Shown here: one piece after another, positions 2,879 through 28,708 of the stretch | Numbering within the stretch: the first letter of the stretch is position 1 | How the letters are laid out: each line of letters opens with the position of its first letter | Source: Escherichia coli | Lineage (GTDB): Bacteria > Pseudomonadota > Gammaproteobacteria > Enterobacterales > Enterobacteriaceae | DNA length: 64,000 bases | Strand: one strand, 5' to 3' | Assembly (NCBI RefSeq): GCF_044324785.1 | Contig: NZ_CP172127.1 | Position numbers and translations under genes: made by a program | Notes under the pieces: generated by a model | Database searches by the model: none | The model's input: only the letters and a program-made list of their open reading frames with translations | What the model was told of the DNA's origin: nothing

Positions 2879-4384
2879 ATGAGCACTAATTTTTTACACG
2901 GTATTCGCACGCTCGAATACGACGACGGCACAAAAGAGATTAGCACGGTAGATATTTCAGTTATCGGGATTGTTGGTACTGCACCGGATTCCGCGCAATC
3001 AACCAGTTCCGAGTTAATAACAGGGAGTGCTATTTTAAAAAACCGCCTGAAATTCACGGCGACGGGACAGGGGGTGAACGGCAATTCATGGAGCGTAGAG
3101 ATTCTCGAAACCGATCCGGACGGCTGCACGGCACTGTGGAGTGATATGCCCGACGGGAGTCGACGTTTATCAATATCAGTCGCACCGGCATCCGGCTCGC
3201 ACGGATACACCCCAGCAGAAATCGTGCAGGCAGTCACAATAGCAAACCCGCCTCCGGACCAATTATTTTTAACAATTACGGCAGTAGATGTCGAGGAGGA
3301 CGCGGGAAATGTGACTGCCTCACCGTTGCAATATTTAAGCGGCGGCAGTGATGAGGCGTTCCCAATTAATACCCCCGTACTTGTTGCCGGGAGTCCAAAA
3401 AAATCCGCTTTACTGGGTGAGCGCGGCACGTTGCCGAAAGATATTGCCGATATTTTCAATCAGGACAACGCCTTGCTTGTTGTTGTACGAGTAAAAGATG
3501 ACAAAGACACAACAAAACAACAGCAAAATATTATCGACGGTGTCAAGCAGCTGGAAAAATCGAAACAGTTAACCGAAGTCACACCGCGTATTATTATTGC
3601 ACCAGATTTTAGCGCAATTGATGCGATAGCCGCTCAGCTTGAGGTGGCCGCAAATAAACTCCGGGGGGTGTGTTATATAGACTCTCCGCGCGCTGCTACC
3701 CCTGCAGACGTTGTGAATCGCCGGCAAAAACTCGGCGGACGTGCTGAGTTGTTGCGTCCCCGTGTTTATTCAACTAGCGACGTCGGGGGGCAATCAAGAC
3801 CGTATTCTGCCATCGCTGCTGGTTTACGAGCCAGAATTGATAATGAAAAAGGGTTTTGGTGGAGTAAGTCGAATCAAAATATTTATGGAATAACAGGGCT
3901 TGAGCAGGTTGATGATTTCATTATTGGCGAGACAAACTGCACAGCGAACCTGCTGAACGCTAGTCAGGTCAGCACCATCATTCGCTATGACGGATTCCGA
4001 CATTGGGGTAACTATCTGTGCAGCCTGGATCCGCAATGGTCGTTTGAATGCGTTCGTCGAACAGCTGACGTAATTGAGGATTCTATAGCCCGGGCAATGA
4101 TGACCGATTTTATTGATCGCCCGATAGACCTGCATCTCGGAACAGACGTTGTCGAGTCGATAAACGCGTATCTGCATAAATTAGAGGAGCAGGGTGCGAT
4201 TAACGGAGGGCGTGCGTGGTTAGACGGTGAGCTGAATACAAAAGAAAGTCTGGCCGCTGGCAATCTTTATATTAATGTTGATTTTGGTCCGAAATCTCCG
4301 GCACAAACAATTACGTTAATGTACCGCATTAATAATGACTATACAGTTGAAGCACTAGCCTCACTTTTTAAAGAAACAGCCTGA
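2879..4384 (+). CDS. Contractile tail sheath protein (gpFI-like)
   Basis: 501 aa; the N-terminal region (HGIRTLEYDDGTKEISTV...IGIVGTA) and later ...RYDGFRHWGN... resemble the P2 FI sheath family. Confidence 0.85.
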   Translation: MSTNFLHGIRTLEYDDGTKEISTVDISVIGIVGTAPDSAQSTSSELITGSAILKNRLKFTATGQGVNGNSWSVEILETDPDGCTALWSDMPDGSRRLSISVAPASGSHGYTPAEIVQAVTIANPPPDQLFLTITAVDVEEDAGNVTASPLQYLSGGSDEAFPINTPVLVAGSPKKSALLGERGTLPKDIADIFNQDNALLVVVRVKDDKDTTKQQQNIIDGVKQLEKSKQLTEVTPRIIIAPDFSAIDAIAAQLEVAANKLRGVCYIDSPRAATPADVVNRRQKLGGRAELLRPRVYSTSDVGGQSRPYSAIAAGLRARIDNEKGFWWSKSNQNIYGITGLEQVDDFIIGETNCTANLLNASQVSTIIRYDGFRHWGNYLCSLDPQWSFECVRRTADVIEDSIARAMMTDFIDRPIDLHLGTDVVESINAYLHKLEEQGAINGGRAWLDGELNTKESLAAGNLYINVDFGPKSPAQTITLMYRINNDYTVEALASLFKETA

Positions 4385-4401: not shown

Positions 4402-4914
4402 ATGTCAGACAGCAACGCTTACCGCGCGTTTGCGCTATTCGTGCAGGGCGAACGGGTTTTAAATTGTACTGAATATACTCCTGTCGATATGAAAATAATC
4501 GAGGACGAGTTTAAAACAGGCGCGATGGATACAGCTATCACATTAGATGGCGGTATGGAGAAAATGTCAGCCAGTTTTAAAGTTTCGGGTTCTGATTCTG
4601 GTGTTATGAGCTATTTCGGGTTAATACCGGGAGTCAAGACGCGGTTTGAAATTCGTAGTGCGTACACAGACTCCTATGGAATAAATTTTGAGCGTATTGA
4701 TACCTACGAGGGACTTATTACGGCAATCACTGATGACGCTCAGGGGACTGATTCAAAATCGTCAGTGGGGCAATCAGTAACGATTGCGCCGAGCTATTAT
4801 AAACGAGTTCAAAATGGACGAATTATTTACGAAATTCATCCTGCAAAAATGAAACGCGTTATCAACGGTGTTGATGTTCTTGCGGGCGTCGCTCGAATCC
4901 TTCATGTATATTAA
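4402..4914 (+). CDS. Tail tube protein (gpFII-like)
   Basis: 170 aa immediately after the sheath gene; size and position match FII. Confidence 0.8.
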   Translation: MSDSNAYRAFALFVQGERVLNCTEYTPVDMKIIEDEFKTGAMDTAITLDGGMEKMSASFKVSGSDSGVMSYFGLIPGVKTRFEIRSAYTDSYGINFERIDTYEGLITAITDDAQGTDSKSSVGQSVTIAPSYYKRVQNGRIIYEIHPAKMKRVINGVDVLAGVARILHVY

Positions 4915-4926
4915 AAGGTAAGTAAA

Positions 4927-5208
4927 ATGGAATCCTTATTAGACAGTATGACTATTACGCTCTCTCGACCGTTTATTATTAAGGGCGAGAGCTGCGATAC
5001 AATTACTATTCGCGAACCCAAATTACGCGACCGCATTATGTTCAGTAACGATAAAAGCAGTCTTGAAGAGCGGACAGCGACAATGCTGGCGCGCCTGGCA
5101 AATCTGGAAAGAGAGGATTTATATGCGCTCCCCGCGTGCGATTACGATCAACTGGAGGCCGCGTTTAACGAACTGGTAAAGCACCCGAAAGACCGACATC
5201 AGATATAG
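4927..5208 (+). CDS. Tail assembly chaperone (gpE-like); possible -1 frameshift extension E' to 5288
   Basis: 93-aa ORF between tube and tape measure. The -1 frame is open from 5169 to a TAA at 5286-5288. Confidence 0.55.
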   Translation: MESLLDSMTITLSRPFIIKGESCDTITIREPKLRDRIMFSNDKSSLEERTATMLARLANLEREDLYALPACDYDQLEAAFNELVKHPKDRHQI

Positions 5209-5316
5209 TTATTCTGATTCCGTTTATTGCGAAAAAACTTGCCATCCCGCCTGATACGCAAATGGACCTGCCGTATCGGGTTTTTAATTTCTATGTAGAC
5301 GAGGTCATGAAAACCG

Positions 5317-6957
5317 ATGGCTATTTCTCAAAACTTTAAAACGCAGGTTGTATTCGGGGGGCGAATAGACCCGTCGTTTCGGCGCGGTACAACAGAACTC
5401 AACGACGCCATTCGGCAGACGTCGTCTACTGTCGGAAAATTAACGAAAAGCCAGGATAAATTAAAAGACAAAATCGCAGCAATGAAACTGGCAGGTAAAG
5501 ATGTCTCTGATTTATCTGCTCAATATCAAAAGCTGGACCGTCGGATAAAGGCGACAACGCAGGACCAGGAGGCGCTGAATACCCAGCTTGCTAAAAAACA
5601 GCGGCTGGAGAAGTGGACGGGGCGCGCAAAAGGTGCTGCAAAATGGGGCGGACGAGCCGCCGCAGGTGCGGTGAGGGCCACGGGACGGGGTATCAAATGG
5701 GGGACGCTGGGGGCCGTGGGTCTGCTCGGCGGCGCGGCTGCTGGCGCGCTGGCAATGAATGCAGAGACGTCAGAAAAACTCGGTCTGGCGAAGTCCTACG
5801 GTGTTGGCATCGAAAAATACGCTGCGTGGGAAAATATTGGTAAAGCTGCGGGCCTGAACGGCGAAAATGTTGGTGACCTGTCAGAAGAACTTACAAATAA
5901 AATCGGCGAAATCGGAAACGAAAAAAACCTGAACCCCATGTTGTTTCAAATTGGCTTGACAAAAAAACGGATGGCTAAATGGGATCGAGAAAAACAGTTC
6001 AATGAAGTTATGCGGCGTATCTCTGAAATGAAGGATGATCAACAGGCGGCGAGTCTGGCTGATCAGCTAATGGGGGGAGAGGCTAATAAAATAATGACCT
6101 ATATGCGGGCGACTGGTAAAAGCTGGGAGCAGACTATGTCGGACGCTCAAAAATCAAACCTGCTAACGAAAGAAGGGGCTGAGGGTGCAGCGCGCGCGCA
6201 CGTATCCGTCACGAATCTGTGGGGGGCAATCACATCGGGGCTGGCAGATACTCTCGGCAAAATCGGAGGGGAACTCGCGCCGACGTTTGACGCTATGCGA
6301 GACGGGCTGGCATCCTGGTTTAAAGAGAATCAAGGGGGGGTTGTTGATAGTATTAAAGAATGGGTTAAGCCAGAAAATATGAAAAAACTTTGGGAGGGGA
6401 TAGTCAGTTTTGGCGAGGCGTGCGTTAAATTCGGAAAAATAATTTGGGCAGTCGTAAAAAAACTGGAGTGGTTAATCCCGGACGAGAAAACAGACGAGGA
6501 ACAGCGCGTATATAACGAAGAATATAATAAAGCGTATCAGGAATTCATGGATAGTGGTGGTAAATATTCACCGAACCCAGGACTGGCAGCAGATAATGTA
6601 GCAAAAGCAAAAGCCGACGAAGCCGTGGATAATATGCGACACCCTGAACGTCTTGCTCGTGCAAAATCACAGGCTGAATCAATGCTCTCGTTTGCTAACC
6701 CGTTTACTGGATTAATAAATAAAGACTCAACGCCTGAATCACAAAACTCAGCAACGTTGAATATTGACGCGCTGAGACAGGCAGTCGCAACTCCAGCGCC
6801 AGAGCAAAACAATAAAATTGAAATCAATATTATCGGAGCAGCAGATCCACAATCAACACAGCAGGCTGCCGCATCGGGTGTGCTCGACGGGCTGAGACAG
6901 GTTGCGAGTTCGTACAATCGTGGTGCAATGTTTGATAAACCAGCGGCGGCGGGGTGA
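5317..6957 (+). CDS. Tail tape measure protein (gpT-like)
   Basis: 546 aa, with an N-terminal coiled-coil-like region and a Gly/Ala-rich stretch (GRAAAGAVRATGRG...GLLGGAAAGALA); position after E. Confidence 0.8.
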   Translation: MAISQNFKTQVVFGGRIDPSFRRGTTELNDAIRQTSSTVGKLTKSQDKLKDKIAAMKLAGKDVSDLSAQYQKLDRRIKATTQDQEALNTQLAKKQRLEKWTGRAKGAAKWGGRAAAGAVRATGRGIKWGTLGAVGLLGGAAAGALAMNAETSEKLGLAKSYGVGIEKYAAWENIGKAAGLNGENVGDLSEELTNKIGEIGNEKNLNPMLFQIGLTKKRMAKWDREKQFNEVMRRISEMKDDQQAASLADQLMGGEANKIMTYMRATGKSWEQTMSDAQKSNLLTKEGAEGAARAHVSVTNLWGAITSGLADTLGKIGGELAPTFDAMRDGLASWFKENQGGVVDSIKEWVKPENMKKLWEGIVSFGEACVKFGKIIWAVVKKLEWLIPDEKTDEEQRVYNEEYNKAYQEFMDSGGKYSPNPGLAADNVAKAKADEAVDNMRHPERLARAKSQAESMLSFANPFTGLINKDSTPESQNSATLNIDALRQAVATPAPEQNNKIEINIIGAADPQSTQQAAASGVLDGLRQVASSYNRGAMFDKPAAAG

Positions 6958-7382
6958 CAATGAGTGATGCAATAAACGGTGCTGAGGATATCATGCTCGG
7001 TTTGGGTGATTTCATTTTTGCTATATCAACAGTAGCGTACAACAAACTGCAACGTAGTGACGCCTGGCGCTGGGCTCAGCAAACACGATTCGGGAAAAAC
7101 GACGCATTGCAGATAACCGGACGACCGAACCCCACAATCACGATCGATGGGAAAATAAACGCGTTATTCCTTGATGGGTGCGGCATTGGCTTGTTAACAG
7201 ATTTGCGGGCACTGGGGAACTCGGGAGAACCCCAGCAACTGGTGCTGGGGACCGGGGAGGTGAAGGGGTACTGGGTTATCAGGGAGTTAACAGAAACGCA
7301 AAACAGTTTTCTGAAAGGAGGGACCCCAAAATCGCAGGACTTTTCACTCACGCTCGAATATTATGGAGCTTCGCTAGATTAA
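6954..7382 (+). CDS. Tail protein gpU-like
   Basis: 142 aa, overlaps the tape-measure stop (ATGA); position. Confidence 0.6.
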   Translation: MTMSDAINGAEDIMLGLGDFIFAISTVAYNKLQRSDAWRWAQQTRFGKNDALQITGRPNPTITIDGKINALFLDGCGIGLLTDLRALGNSGEPQQLVLGTGEVKGYWVIRELTETQNSFLKGGTPKSQDFSLTLEYYGASLD

Positions 7383-7544
7383 TACAAAATCAAGCGCTAC
7401 CAGAGCACTTAACAAGTATAAAAATAATAAAAAAAACTACGAGCATAAATGTAAAACAACCTGATGGTATTTTTTTTTGACGCCGAAATACTAATACCTC
7501 TCCGACTACTAAAATTAATTCTCATTATGAAATCCTTTTAATTA

Positions 7545-7769
7545 ATGGGGCCCCAAATGATTACATACACTACACGGGACGGTGACCGTCTCGATCAGAT
7601 CTGCCTTGCTGTCTACGGGAGAACAGCAAAAACGACAGAAACCGTGTTATATCAGGTTTTAAATTACGGCGTAACGGATATGTGTGCCGTGTTTCGTGCA
7701 GGAGAAAAAATTGTTTTACCAGAAATCGACCCCGAACCGGCTAAAAAAGAAACGCAATTATGGGATTGA
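7545..7769 (+). CDS. Tail protein X-like (LysM-like); a start at 7557 (MITYT...) is also possible
   Basis: Sequence ...DRLDQICLAVYGRT...ETVLYQVLNYGV...AGEKIVLPEI... resembles P2 gpX as I remember it. Confidence 0.65.
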   Translation: MGPQMITYTTRDGDRLDQICLAVYGRTAKTTETVLYQVLNYGVTDMCAVFRAGEKIVLPEIDPEPAKKETQLWD

Positions 7770-7772
7770 TGA

Positions 7773-8816
7773 ATGAGTGATTACGTAAATACTGGCGTGG
7801 AAGCATGGAAGCCCAATTTTTATATATCTGCTGATAATGAAAACATCACGGATAAAATAAGAAAAGGTTTGATCAATATCACGCTCACAGATTATGGTGG
7901 TTCGAGTAAACAGACAGACGAATTACGCGTAGCAATCGTTTCTGAAACTCTGAAAATTCCGGCCCGCGGAGTAAAAATCAGTATTGGGCTCGGTTTCGGT
8001 AATCAGATAATTGATAAGGGTGTATACATCGTTGATGGTGCGAGCAGTGGCGGTGAACCCCGGGTAGTTGATTTCACAGCAAAAGCAGCTCCGATGAACG
8101 CATCAAAAGGCTCTCCGACAGTTCAGAGCAAAAAAACTCGCTCCTGGAGCGACGTCACTGTCAGCAATATCGTTGCAACAATAGCGAGCGATAACGGGCT
8201 AAAACCTCGCGTATCAAAGCGGTTTGCAGACAACATTATCACGCAGCTCGATCAAGTCGGCGAGTCAGATATGCACCTGATGTCGCGGCTCGCAACGAGA
8301 TTCGATGCGGTGAGTAAACCCGCGGGCGGGTACTGGATATTCCTGCCGCGCGGCGCGGGCGAATCTGTTAGCGGAGCACCGCTTCAGCACTACACGCTCA
8401 CGCGTCGTGATAACTCAAGCTGGGGTTATTCGAGAAATGGACAAAACGGTGATAGTGGCGGAGGTGGCGAAAATGCGGAGCCAACGTATTTGATCAAATA
8501 TCACGATACAGCAACGGGGCAGATCAAAGAATTGCGTACGGGCAGTGGCGGCGATCCTGTAATCGAGTGGCCGGCAGTGGAGCCGTCGCTTGATGCAGCG
8601 AAAGAAGCTGCGCCAGGACTCAAGGGCGGTGCAGCTAAAAAAGAGTTCTCCATGACTTACACGACGCCCGCGACGCTCGATTTAGTATCGCTGACTGCAG
8701 AATGCAAAGTCACAACACAAGGATTCGGGACAGAGGAGGACCGAGACTGGACAATCAATACGTTGACGCTGACGCTGGCTGAAAACGGATTCTCTGCGCG
8801 ACTGTCGCTGGAGTAA
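7773..8816 (+). CDS. Tail protein D-like
   Basis: 347 aa immediately after the X-like gene, as in R-type pyocin/phiCTX-like clusters. Confidence 0.65.
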   Translation: MSDYVNTGVEAWKPNFYISADNENITDKIRKGLINITLTDYGGSSKQTDELRVAIVSETLKIPARGVKISIGLGFGNQIIDKGVYIVDGASSGGEPRVVDFTAKAAPMNASKGSPTVQSKKTRSWSDVTVSNIVATIASDNGLKPRVSKRFADNIITQLDQVGESDMHLMSRLATRFDAVSKPAGGYWIFLPRGAGESVSGAPLQHYTLTRRDNSSWGYSRNGQNGDSGGGGENAEPTYLIKYHDTATGQIKELRTGSGGDPVIEWPAVEPSLDAAKEAAPGLKGGAAKKEFSMTYTTPATLDLVSLTAECKVTTQGFGTEEDRDWTINTLTLTLAENGFSARLSLE

Positions 8817-8821
8817 ATGAA

Positions 8822-10648
8822 ATGGCAATAATATCGGGTGTATACGCAAATGGGGTCGGCGAGCCCGTTGTCGGCGTTCAGTTAGTATTAACAGCACGGG
8901 TCACGAGTTCACGCGTAGTAATGACCACTGTTGTAGAGCAAGAAACAGGCGCGGCGGGTGAGTACAAATTTGATATGAAGCCCGGAGTTTACGTTGTCAC
9001 TGCTAGTGCGGCATATCTCGGCGTGATTAACGTTAACCCGGACAGTGTTGACGGCACGTTAAACGACTATTTGACTAATTTTAGCGCAGACGAACTGACG
9101 CCAGCTGCGTTGGCGGAGATCCAGGAACTCGTTGCCACAGCACAAGCCGCTGCCAGTGTTGCCAGCGCCGCCGCAACGGAGGCCAGGCAGAATGCCGCCG
9201 CCGCCGCTGCTGCTGCGCAGATTTCGACGGCAGCGGCAGGGAGCGCCAGATTTGAGAATTTTGACGAAATTATCAATGTCAATACAACAGCAATGCTGGA
9301 GCTGGAAAAACCGGAGGTGTTAGATCCGGATATTGCAATAACTATCACAGAGACGATTAATTATAACTATATTGGCCCGGTAAACGGATTTTGCGACGTT
9401 ACTAGCCCGCTTGAATATAAAATTCAAATGTACGCCTACACAACAGGCGAATATTTTAACGGCGAAACAAATTTAACAGCGGACGGGAAGTTTTCTTTTA
9501 AACGTTCCTGGGCTGGTGCAAAACAATTCAGATTGGTGCGCGTAGCAGATAGTAAATGGATCACTACGCTGGAATACCCGCTGTGTATTCGCAGTTACTG
9601 GATGCCCGCTGACGCCGATCCCGAGGTAGTCAGCGTCATGAAAGACCGTTGCTACACATATGATCAGGCGTGCGCGGCGCTGGCTCTCATGGCGCAGAAT
9701 CACGAGGCGGTAGAGCGTTATGTTACGGGTCTGTGCGCCCTGGTGGGTGAAAACGGCGGCATTAAATTTTTTGTTAACCGGCTGTCCGCACAGTCCTCCC
9801 GCGAATATTACCGCACGGGTAACGCGGCGTGGGTGTTGTACGCCCTGGCATTCTATCTGAGCAAATACCCTACCGGCAGTAACGCTGAGTTAGCGCGCGC
9901 GAAATTAAACGCCGGGCTAACCTGGCTGGACGGTCTGAAGGTTGACGCCAGCGGCGACCCGCGCCACGGCTTATACATGGGCGGCAACGGTAAATATCTG
10001 GAGGACGGATCATTTGATCCGAATTATGTTGCGACCTGGTGCGCGCTCGAGCACAACGTTGATATTTATTTTTTATTCGAACTCGTTGGACGGTTAACCG
10101 ATTTTACCGGATACGAACTGCGAGCCACCACGCTGGCTGCAAATATCGTGGAAAAATTCTGGATTGAGAGCGAGGGGCGATTCCGGCAGGGCGTGCACAT
10201 TGACGGCCCGGACAACGCCGCAGCGCTGGATCAATCGAGTTGGGGCGGGATATTCGCAGTAAAAGCCGCGCCGGAGTTGGCGGAAAAATGCCGCCGTTAT
10301 ATGGAAAGATTCCGGTTCGGCACACTGGAGAGCACCGGTTATACACCGTATCACCCGGACTACGGATACAGCGGCCATAGCCGTGGCGTGTGGACCGAGG
10401 GTACAGCGGGTGTAGCACTATTCGAACGTGCGCTAGGGAACGAGCAGAGAGCTACCGATCTGATCGCGGGATTAAAACCACTGCGTAATGAATACGGCTA
10501 TCGCGACTCATGCGACGATAAAAAATACGACACACTGCCGGACTGGCCGTCGACTACAAACACCGCTTGGGTTATTTTAACATGCAAGCCGGCGGGGTTT
10601 TGGTGCGTAGATTTCCCGGTATTGGACGTTGGTATCGTCAGGTACTGA
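8822..10648 (+). CDS. Side-tail-fiber-like protein: lambda Stf-like N-terminal domain, Ala-rich linker, and an unassigned ~400-aa C-terminal domain
   Basis: N-terminus MAIISGVYANGVGEPVVGVQLVLTARV...GEYKFDMKPGVYVV...GTLNDYL parallels the lambda Stf N-terminus. An AAAAAAAAQISTAAAG stretch follows, then a Trp/Tyr-rich globular region with no transmembrane or signal sequence. Confidence 0.6.
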   Translation: MAIISGVYANGVGEPVVGVQLVLTARVTSSRVVMTTVVEQETGAAGEYKFDMKPGVYVVTASAAYLGVINVNPDSVDGTLNDYLTNFSADELTPAALAEIQELVATAQAAASVASAAATEARQNAAAAAAAAQISTAAAGSARFENFDEIINVNTTAMLELEKPEVLDPDIAITITETINYNYIGPVNGFCDVTSPLEYKIQMYAYTTGEYFNGETNLTADGKFSFKRSWAGAKQFRLVRVADSKWITTLEYPLCIRSYWMPADADPEVVSVMKDRCYTYDQACAALALMAQNHEAVERYVTGLCALVGENGGIKFFVNRLSAQSSREYYRTGNAAWVLYALAFYLSKYPTGSNAELARAKLNAGLTWLDGLKVDASGDPRHGLYMGGNGKYLEDGSFDPNYVATWCALEHNVDIYFLFELVGRLTDFTGYELRATTLAANIVEKFWIESEGRFRQGVHIDGPDNAAALDQSSWGGIFAVKAAPELAEKCRRYMERFRFGTLESTGYTPYHPDYGYSGHSRGVWTEGTAGVALFERALGNEQRATDLIAGLKPLRNEYGYRDSCDDKKYDTLPDWPSTTNTAWVILTCKPAGFWCVDFPVLDVGIVRY

Positions 10649-20192: not shown

Positions 20193-20220
20193 AAAAAAAA
20201 GCCGGCATCATGCCGGCCCA
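20193..20220 (-). terminator. Strong rho-independent terminator (minus strand) in the yedS-yedR intergenic region
   Basis: GC-rich hairpin GCCGGCATCATGCCGGC, followed on the minus strand by eight T. Confidence 0.6.
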
Positions 20221-20429
20221 AAAAATATAAACAAGACGATAAAAGGCTAATAACGGGGTTATCATGACACAGAAATCAAAAAAGGTATAATTGAATTCGC
20301 TGCTAATATATTGTTTAGGTGAATTAATAAAACCATTACCATAGATAATAATAAATCTTCATTGCTGTTTTTCCGGTAATTATTGCCGTTGCGCAAAAAT
20401 TATCTATTTGTTCAAAAAATGATTGAGTC

Positions 20430-28618: not shown

Positions 28619-28708
28619 AACACATCAGATTTCCTGGTGTAACGAATTTTTTAAGTGCTTCTTGCTTAAGCAAGTTTCATCCCGACCCCCTCAGGGTCGG
28701 GATTTTTT
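28619..28708 (+). ncRNA. dsrA: DsrA small regulatory RNA
   Basis: AACACATCAGATTTCCTGGTGTAACGAATTTTTTAAGTGCTTCTTGCTTAAGCAAGTTTCATCCCGACCCCCTCAGGGTCGGGATTTTTTT matches DsrA as I remember it, including the terminator hairpin and U-tail. Confidence 0.9.

What the first reader, a model, noticed from the sequence alone, without database searches (positions are those of the whole stretch)
7383..7544. AT-rich 160-bp spacer inside the tail operon between gpU and gpX
The other tail genes abut or overlap, but here there is a 160-bp AT-rich non-coding gap (long A and T runs, a TTGACG hexamer). This suggests an internal promoter or a recombination junction between modules.
Basis: seen in the sequence. Interest (0 to 1): 0.3.

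Follow-up and report, generated by a model that had tools for sequence, protein, structure and literature searches.

The report
Frameshifted antisense small gene, not spacer
The AT-rich "spacer" between two prophage tail genes is the leftover front end of an inserted, opposite-strand accessory gene, which in most E. coli still encodes an unannotated 44-residue membrane protein but carries a one-base frameshift in this window.

Summary
The gap is real. It runs from the gpU stop at 7382 to the gpX start at 7557 (or 7545), has 31% GC against 48% for the cluster, and holds an A8 run, a T9 run and TTGACG at 7477-7482. It is not non-coding filler, and it shows no consensus promoter.

In more distant relatives of this P2-like tail module, U and X overlap (TGATG). 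Other relatives carry different low-GC cargo at exactly this point. The cargo is always on the minus strand, and its start codon lies 16-33 nt from the X start codon. Cargo types seen: an Imm_superinfect gene, two signal-peptide proteins, and a Salmonella pair of 166-aa and 220-aa membrane proteins.

The window's spacer is the 5' remnant of that 166-aa gene: RBS, ATG at 7525 on the minus strand, a basic N-terminus, one TM helix, then stop.

- The 44-codon ORF matches exactly in 427-432 of the 434 E. coli complete genomes that carry the element, and RefSeq does not annotate it.
- It evolves under purifying selection (dN/dS about 0.05-0.2).
- The window has T9 where the intact allele has T8. This +1 frameshift gives a 38-aa product with no TM helix.

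Verdict: a truncated moron that encodes a small membrane protein, inactivated here. Its function is unknown; superinfection exclusion is a guess. Modest interest.

The parts
6960..7382 (+). gpU-like tail protein, the gene to the left of the slot
   Evidence: Pfam PF06995, E 9.5e-33. RefSeq relatives annotate the same 140-aa frame.
7383..7556 (.). The inserted cassette: the whole U-X intergenic region, 31% GC. It is replaced wholesale by other cassettes in relatives and is absent in L032-L037.
   Evidence: Alignment of junctions; gap sequences and GC; empty junctions with a TGATG overlap.
7390..7525 (-). Remnant small gene. With T8 it reads as a 44-aa protein, MRINFSSRRGISISASKKIPSGCFTFM(L/F)VVFFIIFILVKCSGSA: a basic N-terminus and one TM helix. 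The start is ATG at 7525-7523 and the ancestral stop is TGA at 7392-7390.
   Evidence: Six-frame translations. P0016/URC09429.1 is the only annotation of it. It is 63% identical to the N-terminus of Salmonella P0020, E 8e-16. dN/dS is 0.05-0.21. Exact match in 427 (3' 64 nt) and 432 (80 nt with T8) of 434 E. coli genomes.
7409..7525 (-). The ORF as it actually reads in this window: 38 aa, MRINFSSRRGISISASKKNTIRLFYIYARSFFYYFYTC. It is out of frame after the homopolymer and has lost the TM helix.
   Evidence: This exact protein is absent from the 15-billion-protein collection.
7470..7478 (.). T9 run (A9 on the coding minus strand), the site of the +1 frameshift. The in-frame allele is T8. It encodes Lys-Lys-Ile (TCA AAA AAA ATA).
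   Evidence: Position 7470 is the one difference shared against all ten aligned relatives. 432 of 434 E. coli genomes have T8. Salmonella P0020 has the same A8 in frame.
7429..7436 (.). Second homopolymer: A8 on the + strand, T8 on the minus strand, in the TM-helix codons (VVFFII). Frameshift variants occur here in other assemblies.
   Evidence: P0017 and P0018 change frame at this run. L012 has an in-frame 3-nt deletion next to it.
7533..7537 (-). Shine-Dalgarno-like AAGGA, 7 nt upstream of the minus-strand ATG
   Evidence: Read directly from the sequence. Equivalent AAGGG/GAGG/GGAAGGA motifs precede the cargo start codons in L017, L019, L006 and L031.
7389..7413 (-). Terminator-like hairpin on the minus strand: 10 pairs including G-U, then a U-rich tail. 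It overlaps the last codons (KCSGSA) and the stop. On the + strand the stem has a C-A mismatch and A-rich sequence follows it.
7477..7482 (+). It is not part of a recognisable promoter.
   Evidence: No promoter hit. The hexamer varies or is absent in relatives.
7547..7550 (+). Weak GGGG Shine-Dalgarno for gpX, inside the GGGGCCCC palindrome (7547-7554). It is supplied by the cassette, because the insert broke the U-X translational coupling.
   Evidence: Each cassette type carries its own sequence up to the X start codon.
7557..7769 (+). gpX-like tail protein X, the gene to the right of the slot
   Evidence: Pfam PF05489, E 6.9e-16.

Best explanation
The 'spacer' is a moron-type insertion in the late tail operon of an E. 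coli prophage, at a slot between gpU and gpX that stands empty in more distant relatives.

The cargo reads on the opposite strand. It is the truncated 5' part of a gene that in Salmonella relatives encodes a 166-aa inner-membrane-anchored protein with a periplasmic OB-fold-like domain, followed there by a second 220-aa gene. What remains in E. coli is the RBS and 44 codons: a basic cytoplasmic N-terminus, one TM helix and a short KCSGSA tail. The ORF ends in a terminator-like hairpin right at the gpU stop codon.

This short form is itself a conserved, unannotated gene in about 8% of complete E. coli genomes. In this window one extra T in the T8 run (A8 on the coding strand) shifts the frame after Lys18. 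The copy here therefore predicts a 38-aa product without the TM helix, and is most likely a null allele or a homopolymer sequencing error.

On the + strand the late tail transcript simply has to read through the insert. gpX uses its own weak RBS, which the cassette supplies.

Shown: insertion slot, homology, purifying selection, frameshift. Inferred: expression from the lysogen, N-in membrane topology, and any role in phage exclusion.
For: 1. Insertion slot. U and X overlap (TGATG) in L032-L037, where gpU is 62-66% identical to the window's. In other relatives the region from the U stop to the X start codon is replaced wholesale by unrelated cassettes:
- Imm_superinfect, PF14373, E 5e-11, in L006, L013, L021 and L039.
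- Signal-peptide proteins in L031 and L040.
- P0020 plus a 220-aa gene in Salmonella locus L041.
All cargo is on the minus strand, has 31-38% GC, and starts 16-33 nt from the X start codon.

2. Homology. The restored 44-aa product is 63% identical to residues 1-43 of P0020 (E 8e-16). A profile of it retrieves P0019-P0023, which all lie next to this type of tail module and antisense to it.

3. Coding selection.
- L003 vs the E. fergusonii version L015: pS 0.66, pN 0.19, dN/dS 0.14. Differences by codon position are 12/6/20, with Ser TCT<->AGC codon-family switches. Binomial P 3e-4.
- The 60-aa forms L017 vs L019: dN/dS 0.05-0.08, codon positions 1/2/21, P 2.5e-8.
- pN is similar to that of gpU (0.15) and gpX (0.11).

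4. Population. 432 of 434 E. coli genomes are exact over 80 nt including T8, and 427 of 434 are exact over the 3' 64 nt. Nothing is annotated there in the records inspected.

5. Frameshift. T9 occurs only in the window. The closest relative, L005, has T8, with 3 differences in about 1060 nt.

6. Signals. AAGGA lies 7 nt before the ATG, and a minus-strand hairpin plus U-rich tail sits at the ORF end.

7. Moron criteria follow PMC3594210.
Against: - No convincing minus-strand promoter was found. The only candidate is a weak extended -10 (TGTAATCAT) overlapping the X start codon, with a poor -35. The gpX 5' region is not conserved at synonymous sites between the E. coli and E. fergusonii versions.
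- No transcript or protein data were available.
- The ORF is out of frame at homopolymers in several assemblies (window, L012, L015, P0017, P0018). That could mean relaxed constraint.
- Many of the 434 E. coli genomes are clonal (ST131), so the counts are not independent.
- The 98-99% identity of the 7329-7609 block against L003 could come from a recent recombination tract rather than from selection.
- The short form lacks the periplasmic domain of the full-length relatives and might be an inert leftover.
- If the E. coli and E. fergusonii truncations arose independently, part of the dN/dS signal reflects selection on full-length ancestors.
Confidence: 0.82

Rival explanations
1. Internal sigma-70 promoter, or another + strand regulatory element, that drives or modulates gpX, gpD and the fibre gene.
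For: The AT-rich gap holds a TTGACG hexamer at 7477-7482. Because the insert separates U from X, some compensation for lost translational coupling is plausible.
Against: - No promoter-like site was found in the gap at the 9-of-12 threshold on either strand. Promoter-like hits in the 16-kb region are no more frequent than in shuffles: 23 found against 25.1 expected.
- There is no -10 hexamer 16-18 nt after TTGACG.
- The hexamer is mutated in L007 and L014 (a synonymous change for the minus-strand ORF) and absent in L015.
- Relatives with an empty slot, or with quite different cassettes, run the same operon.
- The + strand RNA has no unusual fold, z = 0.13, and there is no Rfam match.
Confidence: 0.05
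2. Inert scar. The 162-174 nt are a decaying leftover of a deleted moron with no present function on either strand. The high identity among E. coli copies reflects recent spread and recombination only.
For: - The cassette is demonstrably a truncation of a larger gene.
- Frameshifted copies exist: the window, L012, L015, P0017 and P0018.
- Most E. coli copies belong to a few clones.
- No promoter was identified.
- For this window's own copy, which is frameshifted, this reading is effectively correct.
Against: - Short forms separated by saturated synonymous divergence (pS 0.55-0.66) keep the frame, the start codon and the protein sequence. dN/dS is 0.05-0.14, with P 3e-4 to 2.5e-8.
- Short forms of 43-67 aa recur in several lineages.
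- The SD and a 3' hairpin are retained.
Confidence: 0.1
3. Type I toxin-like small hydrophobic peptide, or a phase-variable contingency gene. The A8/A9 tract would act as an ON/OFF switch, by replication or transcriptional slippage, for a membrane-active peptide held in check by antisense late-operon RNA.
For: - The product is a 44-aa single-TM peptide.
- Its mRNA is fully antisense to the tail-operon transcript.
- Two homopolymer tracts lie in a 135-nt ORF, with tract lengths A6 to A9 seen across assemblies.
- Runs of 9 A or T are prone to slippage during transcription and to mutation during replication (PMC1088944).
Against: - 432 of 434 complete E. coli genomes carry the same in-frame T8, so there is no population-level phase variation.
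- The A run follows simply from Lys-Lys-Ile codons and is in frame in the full-length Salmonella gene.
- The family includes 166-173-aa proteins with a folded periplasmic domain. That argues the N-terminus is a membrane anchor, not a toxin.
- No antitoxin sRNA or Rfam family matched.
Confidence: 0.03

Closest known systems
Moron elements of temperate phages, with gene 15 of phage HK97 as the prototype (PMC3594210; Cumby et al. 2012, as cited there)
   Same: Extra DNA inside a tail operon, between genes that are adjacent in related phages. GC content differs from the neighbours. The product is a small inner-membrane protein. A terminator-like hairpin follows the gene.
   Different: The gene is antisense to the tail operon. 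I found no sequence similarity to known phage or defence families (Pfam, PHROGs and PADLOC all empty); gp15 itself was not compared. The promoter is not identified and expression from the prophage is untested. The gene is a truncated derivative of a longer gene and is frameshifted in this window.
Imm_superinfect (PF14373 / phrog_1039) superinfection-immunity membrane proteins
   Same: They occupy the identical U-X slot, in the same minus orientation and abutting the X start codon, in sister prophages L006, L013, L021 and L039. They are small membrane proteins.
   Different: The 44-aa ORF does not match the family. It has one TM helix, where the roughly 80-aa Imm-like proteins appear to have two or more hydrophobic stretches (my reading of the sequences).
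Salmonella enterica hypothetical protein DMA29_03150 (P0020, 166 aa) and relatives P0025 and P0022
   Same: True homologues. P0020 is 63% identical to the 44-aa product over residues 1-43, has the same TCAAAAAAAATACCATC stretch, and sits in the same slot and orientation between gpX and gpU.
   Different: The full-length proteins carry a periplasmic OB-fold-like domain (residues 60-166, pLDDT 80-93). In L041 a second 220-aa gene follows. The E. coli form stops right after the TM helix.
Type I toxins (Hok, Ldr, TisB and similar) and E. coli small membrane proteins under 50 aa
   Same: Size, a single hydrophobic helix, missed by annotation.
   Different: No homology and no cognate sRNA was found. 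The basic segment is N-terminal with a short C-terminal tail. The peptide derives from the anchor of a larger protein.

Membership tests
Moron (as defined in PMC3594210) | Extra DNA between genes that are adjacent in related phages | tested here: met
   U and X overlap (TGATG) in L032-L037. The window has 174 nt there.
Moron (as defined in PMC3594210) | Base composition different from the surrounding genes | tested here: met
   GC is 0.31 against 0.48 for the tail cluster. Other cargo in the slot has GC 0.31-0.38 against 0.46-0.49.
Moron (as defined in PMC3594210) | Own terminator | tested here: met
   A minus-strand hairpin at 7413..7389 (10 pairs) with a U-rich tail sits at the end of the ORF. 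This is a consensus-level prediction only.
Moron (as defined in PMC3594210) | Own promoter | tested here: inconclusive
   No consensus site was found. The only candidate is a weak extended -10 overlapping the X start codon. Any promoter would have to lie inside gpX.
Moron (as defined in PMC3594210) | Expression from the repressed prophage | not testable with these tools
   Needs RNA-seq or Ribo-seq of a lysogen.
   No hit in 7383-7556. TTGACG has no -10 partner and varies or is absent in L007, L014 and L015.
P0020-like membrane-anchored protein family (unnamed) | N-terminal MR(I/V/F)x(V/I/F)N..(R/K)G..(V/I)S.S..K basic segment, one TM helix, then a KC(S/T)(G/E) motif | tested here: met
   Alignment A2 and profile hits P0019-P0023. 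BLASTP E 8e-16. In the window this holds only after removing one T from the T9 run.
P0020-like membrane-anchored protein family (unnamed) | C-terminal periplasmic OB-fold-like domain of about 110 aa | tested here: not met
   The ORF stops one residue after KCSGS. The rest of the gene is deleted.
Imm_superinfect PF14373 | Match to the Pfam profile above the gathering score | tested here: not met
   No hit for the 44-aa or the 38-aa product at E <= 1. The L006 and L013 cargo proteins do hit, E 5e-11 and 9e-12.
Type I toxin-antitoxin | Small hydrophobic toxin plus a dedicated antisense or divergent sRNA | tested here: inconclusive
   The small TM peptide is present. No Rfam family matched and the RNA fold is not unusual, z = 0.2. 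Toxicity is not testable here.
Phase-variable contingency locus | Homopolymer tract in the ORF whose length varies among closely related isolates | tested here: not met
   The tracts exist, but 432 of 434 complete E. coli genomes share T8. Variants (A6, A7, A9) are rare or come from single assemblies.

The most novel reading that the evidence does not exclude
The anchor-only peptide (43-67 aa: a basic N-terminus and one TM helix) would be a functional, prophage-expressed small inner-membrane protein in its own right. One possible role is blocking DNA injection by phages with related contractile tails, as HK97 gp15 does for siphophages. It would be kept in the pandemic ST131 lineage and missed by all annotation. 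Its A8/A9 tract would allow occasional OFF/ON switching, or partial rescue by transcriptional slippage, so that even the window's A9 allele makes some full-length peptide.
Probability: 0.15. Interest if true: 0.55.

Novelty: new member of a known kind. Interest (0 to 1): 0.33.

Why it matters
A stretch that looks like filler in a well-known type of prophage tail operon hides a conserved small gene. RefSeq leaves it unannotated in more than 400 complete E. coli genomes, including many ST131 genomes.

The gpU|gpX junction of this tail-module family is also a recurrent docking site for antisense accessory genes, one of which is a recognised superinfection-immunity family. That makes the slot a convenient place to look for new prophage-encoded membrane or exclusion factors.

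The 44-aa peptide can be tested cheaply: express it and challenge with phages.

For this particular window the practical point is smaller. Its copy is a frameshifted allele, and no internal promoter needs to be invoked.

Tried and rejected
- Rfam: the gathering scan of the whole window and an E<=10 scan of 7300-7650 gave no credible RNA family in the gap.
- RNA folding of both strands: z-scores 0.20 and 0.13, so no special structure.
- The sigma-70 and terminator scan found no promoter in the gap. My own minus-strand scan across cargo-bearing loci found only a weak, non-conserved extended -10 at the X start codon.
- The + strand 25-aa ORF (7464-7541) is rejected. It crosses the T run, and all + frames are full of stops.
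- Dispersed repeat or MITE is rejected. All 436 E. coli matches lie between U and X.
- Pfam, PHROGs and PADLOC gave nothing for the 44-aa product, for P0020/P0022, or for the 220-aa and 156-aa cargo proteins. Sub-threshold OB-fold hints only: PF12869 E 0.21, PF19913 E 0.004.
- Foldseek of the P0020 model against PDB returned only generic OB folds (RPA, LysRS, CcmE) with E >= 2e-3, so no functional lead.
- The genome-contig scan with a gpU alignment returned a single locus, E. whittamii. The module is rare among species representatives.
- The literature search for the phage records that carry the element found only a survey preprint, which I did not read.

Full report
**Context.** The window is an E. 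coli-type chromosome. DsrA lies at 28619, RseX at 20194 and three tRNAs at 61.6 kb. The fli-gene backbone is 99% identical to E. coli. Bases 1 to about 11000 are the tail half of a prophage next to yodB/zinT, as in E. coli C41 (L004), which has lambda-like head genes upstream. The gene order is a gpJ fragment, gpI, fibre genes, sheath 2879-4384, tube 4402-4914, gpE-like chaperone 4927-5208, tape measure 5317-6957, gpU 6960-7382, gap, gpX 7557-7769, gpD 7773-8816, and a 608-aa protein with a tail-fibre N-terminal domain at 8822-10648. The same tail module also sits next to yecA in many E. coli genomes, many of them labelled ST131.

**Observation.** The gap exists as described.
- gpU stops at 7382. 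The gpX ORF has in-frame ATGs at 7545 and 7557, and RefSeq relatives use the latter.
- GC is 0.31 against 0.48 for the cluster.
- There is an A8 run at 7429-7436, a T9 run at 7470-7478, and TTGACG at 7477-7482.
- Apart from a 108-nt stretch after the gpE-like gene (the place expected for an E+E' extension; not checked), this is the only real gap in the operon.
- Comparable low-GC patches occur elsewhere in the cluster.

**The gap is an insertion slot.** I collected relatives through gpU homologues.
- In the more distant ones (L032-L037, gpU 62-66% identical) the U stop and X start overlap as TGATG, like the other tail genes.
- In closer ones, everything from the U stop codon to the X start codon is replaced as a block.
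- L006, L013, L021 (E. whittamii) and L039 carry about 240 nt encoding an Imm_superinfect protein (PF14373, E 5e-11; phrog_1039 'immunity to superinfection').
- L031 and L040 carry signal-peptide proteins. L018 has only 84 nt.
- All cargo genes read on the minus strand. The cassettes have 31-38% GC (45% in L017 and L019), and their start codons lie 16-33 nt from the X start codon.
- This fits the published description of a moron: added DNA, deviating GC, own signals, first described in the HK97 tail operon (PMC3594210).

**What the window's cassette encodes.** On the minus strand an ATG at 7525 is preceded by AAGGA at a 7-nt spacing.
- In nearly all relatives the run at 7470-7478 is T8. The ORF then reads 44 aa: MRINFSSRRGISISASKKIPSGCFTFMFVVFFIIFILVKCSGSA. 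That is a basic N-terminus, a roughly 20-residue hydrophobic helix and a short tail.
- The last codons form a hairpin followed by U-rich sequence on the minus strand only.
- The only annotation of this ORF is as 'hypothetical protein' in phage records from one survey (three accessions listed). The RefSeq records inspected annotate nothing there.

**Is it a gene?** There are four lines of evidence.
- Divergence between short forms. The E. fergusonii version (L015, gpU 76% identical, spacer about 65% identical) keeps both halves of the protein. Against L003, synonymous differences are 18.5 of 28.2 sites and non-synonymous 19.5 of 103.8 (dN/dS 0.14). Differences by codon position are 12/6/20, including Ser TCT<->AGC switches (binomial P 3e-4).
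- Two 60-aa homologues in GC-richer cassettes (L017, L019) give dN/dS 0.05-0.08, with codon-position differences 1/2/21 (P 2.5e-8).
- A profile of these peptides, searched against 1.8 billion representative proteins, found only seven hits. The six good ones are relatives: P0017 (a frameshift variant of the 44-aa ORF), P0019, P0020, P0021, P0022 and P0023. The four whose contigs I examined (P0020-P0023) all lie next to this kind of tail module and antisense to it.
- P0020 (166 aa, Salmonella enterica) lies in the same U-X slot and is followed by a 220-aa membrane protein. Its first 43 residues are 63% identical to the E. coli peptide (E 8e-16). Its DNA has the same TCAAAAAAAATACCATC stretch, in frame. 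Residues 60-166 model confidently as an OB-fold-like domain. Foldseek finds only generic OB folds, and Pfam, PHROGs and PADLOC have no family for it.

So the E. coli cassette is the 5' remnant of this gene. The periplasmic domain and the second gene were deleted, and the anchor-only form has persisted under purifying selection.

**State of the window's copy.**
- Every aligned relative differs from the window at 7470, where the window has T9.
- 432 of 434 complete E. coli genomes with the element match the T8 allele exactly over 80 nt. 427 of 434 match the 3' 64 nt exactly.
- The nearest relative, L005, differs from the window at only 3 of about 1060 positions and has T8.
- T9 shifts the frame after Lys18 and gives a 38-aa product with no TM helix.
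- Other out-of-frame copies exist: L012 with T7, L015 one A short of in-frame (A6 where A7 is needed), and P0017 and P0018 at the second run.
- Runs of 9 A or T are prone to slippage in replication and transcription (PMC1088944). The change could be a real null mutation, a sequencing error, or be partly rescued in the mRNA. The data cannot tell these apart.

**The promoter idea.**
- No sigma-70-like site is reported in the gap on either strand, and the region as a whole has no excess of such sites.
- TTGACG has no -10 partner. It changes to TTGATG in L007 and L014, which is synonymous for the minus-strand ORF, and it is absent in L015.
- There is no Rfam match and no unusual RNA structure.
- The promoter of the minus-strand gene is also unresolved. 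It would have to lie inside gpX. Only a weak extended -10 overlapping the X start codon was found, and the gpX 5' end is not specially conserved between the E. coli and E. fergusonii versions.

**Mosaicism.** Against L003 the block 7329-7609 has 2 differences in 281 nt, while the flanks differ every 5-10 nt. Either a recombination tract that carried the cassette or constraint on the cassette and its signals would explain this. I cannot separate the two.

**Conclusion.** The 'non-coding' label and the promoter reading are not supported. The 'junction' reading holds in the sense of a moron insertion slot. The best explanation is a truncated, antisense moron gene for a small inner-membrane protein, frameshifted in this window. 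Its function is unknown. Superinfection exclusion is suggested only by analogy with HK97 gp15 and by the Imm_superinfect genes that occupy the same slot in sister prophages.

Noticed in passing
window 28619-28705 (+), 20194-20283 (-), 61625-61924 (+): DsrA and RseX sRNA genes and a cluster of three tRNAs. They place the window in the E. coli yedS/dsrA-to-fli-to-tRNA region. The prophage sits beyond yodB/zinT.
   Followed up: partly
window 5209-5316: This is the only other gap in the tail operon: 108 nt between the gpE-like chaperone (PF10109) and the tape measure. It is probably the E+E' frameshift extension, as in P2. In L017 a 40-aa ORF is called at the equivalent place. I did not locate a slippery site.
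   Followed up: no
window 7100-7330 (3' half of gpU): This segment is only 85-89% identical to the E. coli majority allele (WP_001278178.1), yet the protein is 97% identical. The adjoining spacer is 98-99% identical. Mosaic recombination breakpoints lie at about 7329 and about 7609.
   Followed up: partly
L001/L003 (E. coli TUM13936, E41-1) versus L004 (C41) and the window: The same tail module occupies two chromosomal sites in E. coli. One is next to yecA (many ST131 genomes; gpD often split or truncated; deposited as roughly 20-kb 'phages' vB_EcoM-569R10 and others). The other is next to yodB, with lambda-like head genes upstream. Whether the yecA copy is a defective prophage or a tailocin-like remnant was not examined.
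   Followed up: no
L044 (same contig as L018), L045, L017: Relatives of this tail module lie beside ParA/SopB-type partition genes (L044, L045), which suggests phage-plasmids. In L017 the module lies next to T6SS Hcp and Tlde1-domain genes.
   Followed up: no
L043 and L045: In these loci the small antisense gene lies between gpX and the tape-measure gene, and no separate gpU gene is called. gpU may be missing, fused, or simply not called.
   Followed up: no
window 8822-10648: After gpD there is a 608-aa protein with a prophage tail-fibre N-terminal domain (PF08400, E 5e-25). It is much longer than the 316-336-aa versions in several relatives, and DNA similarity to E. coli relatives breaks off at about 9132.
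   Followed up: no
window 7547-7554: A perfect 8-bp palindrome, GGGGCCCC, sits immediately upstream of the gpX start. It doubles as the weak SD for gpX. It is conserved in all E. coli copies of this cassette but absent from other cassette types.
   Followed up: no
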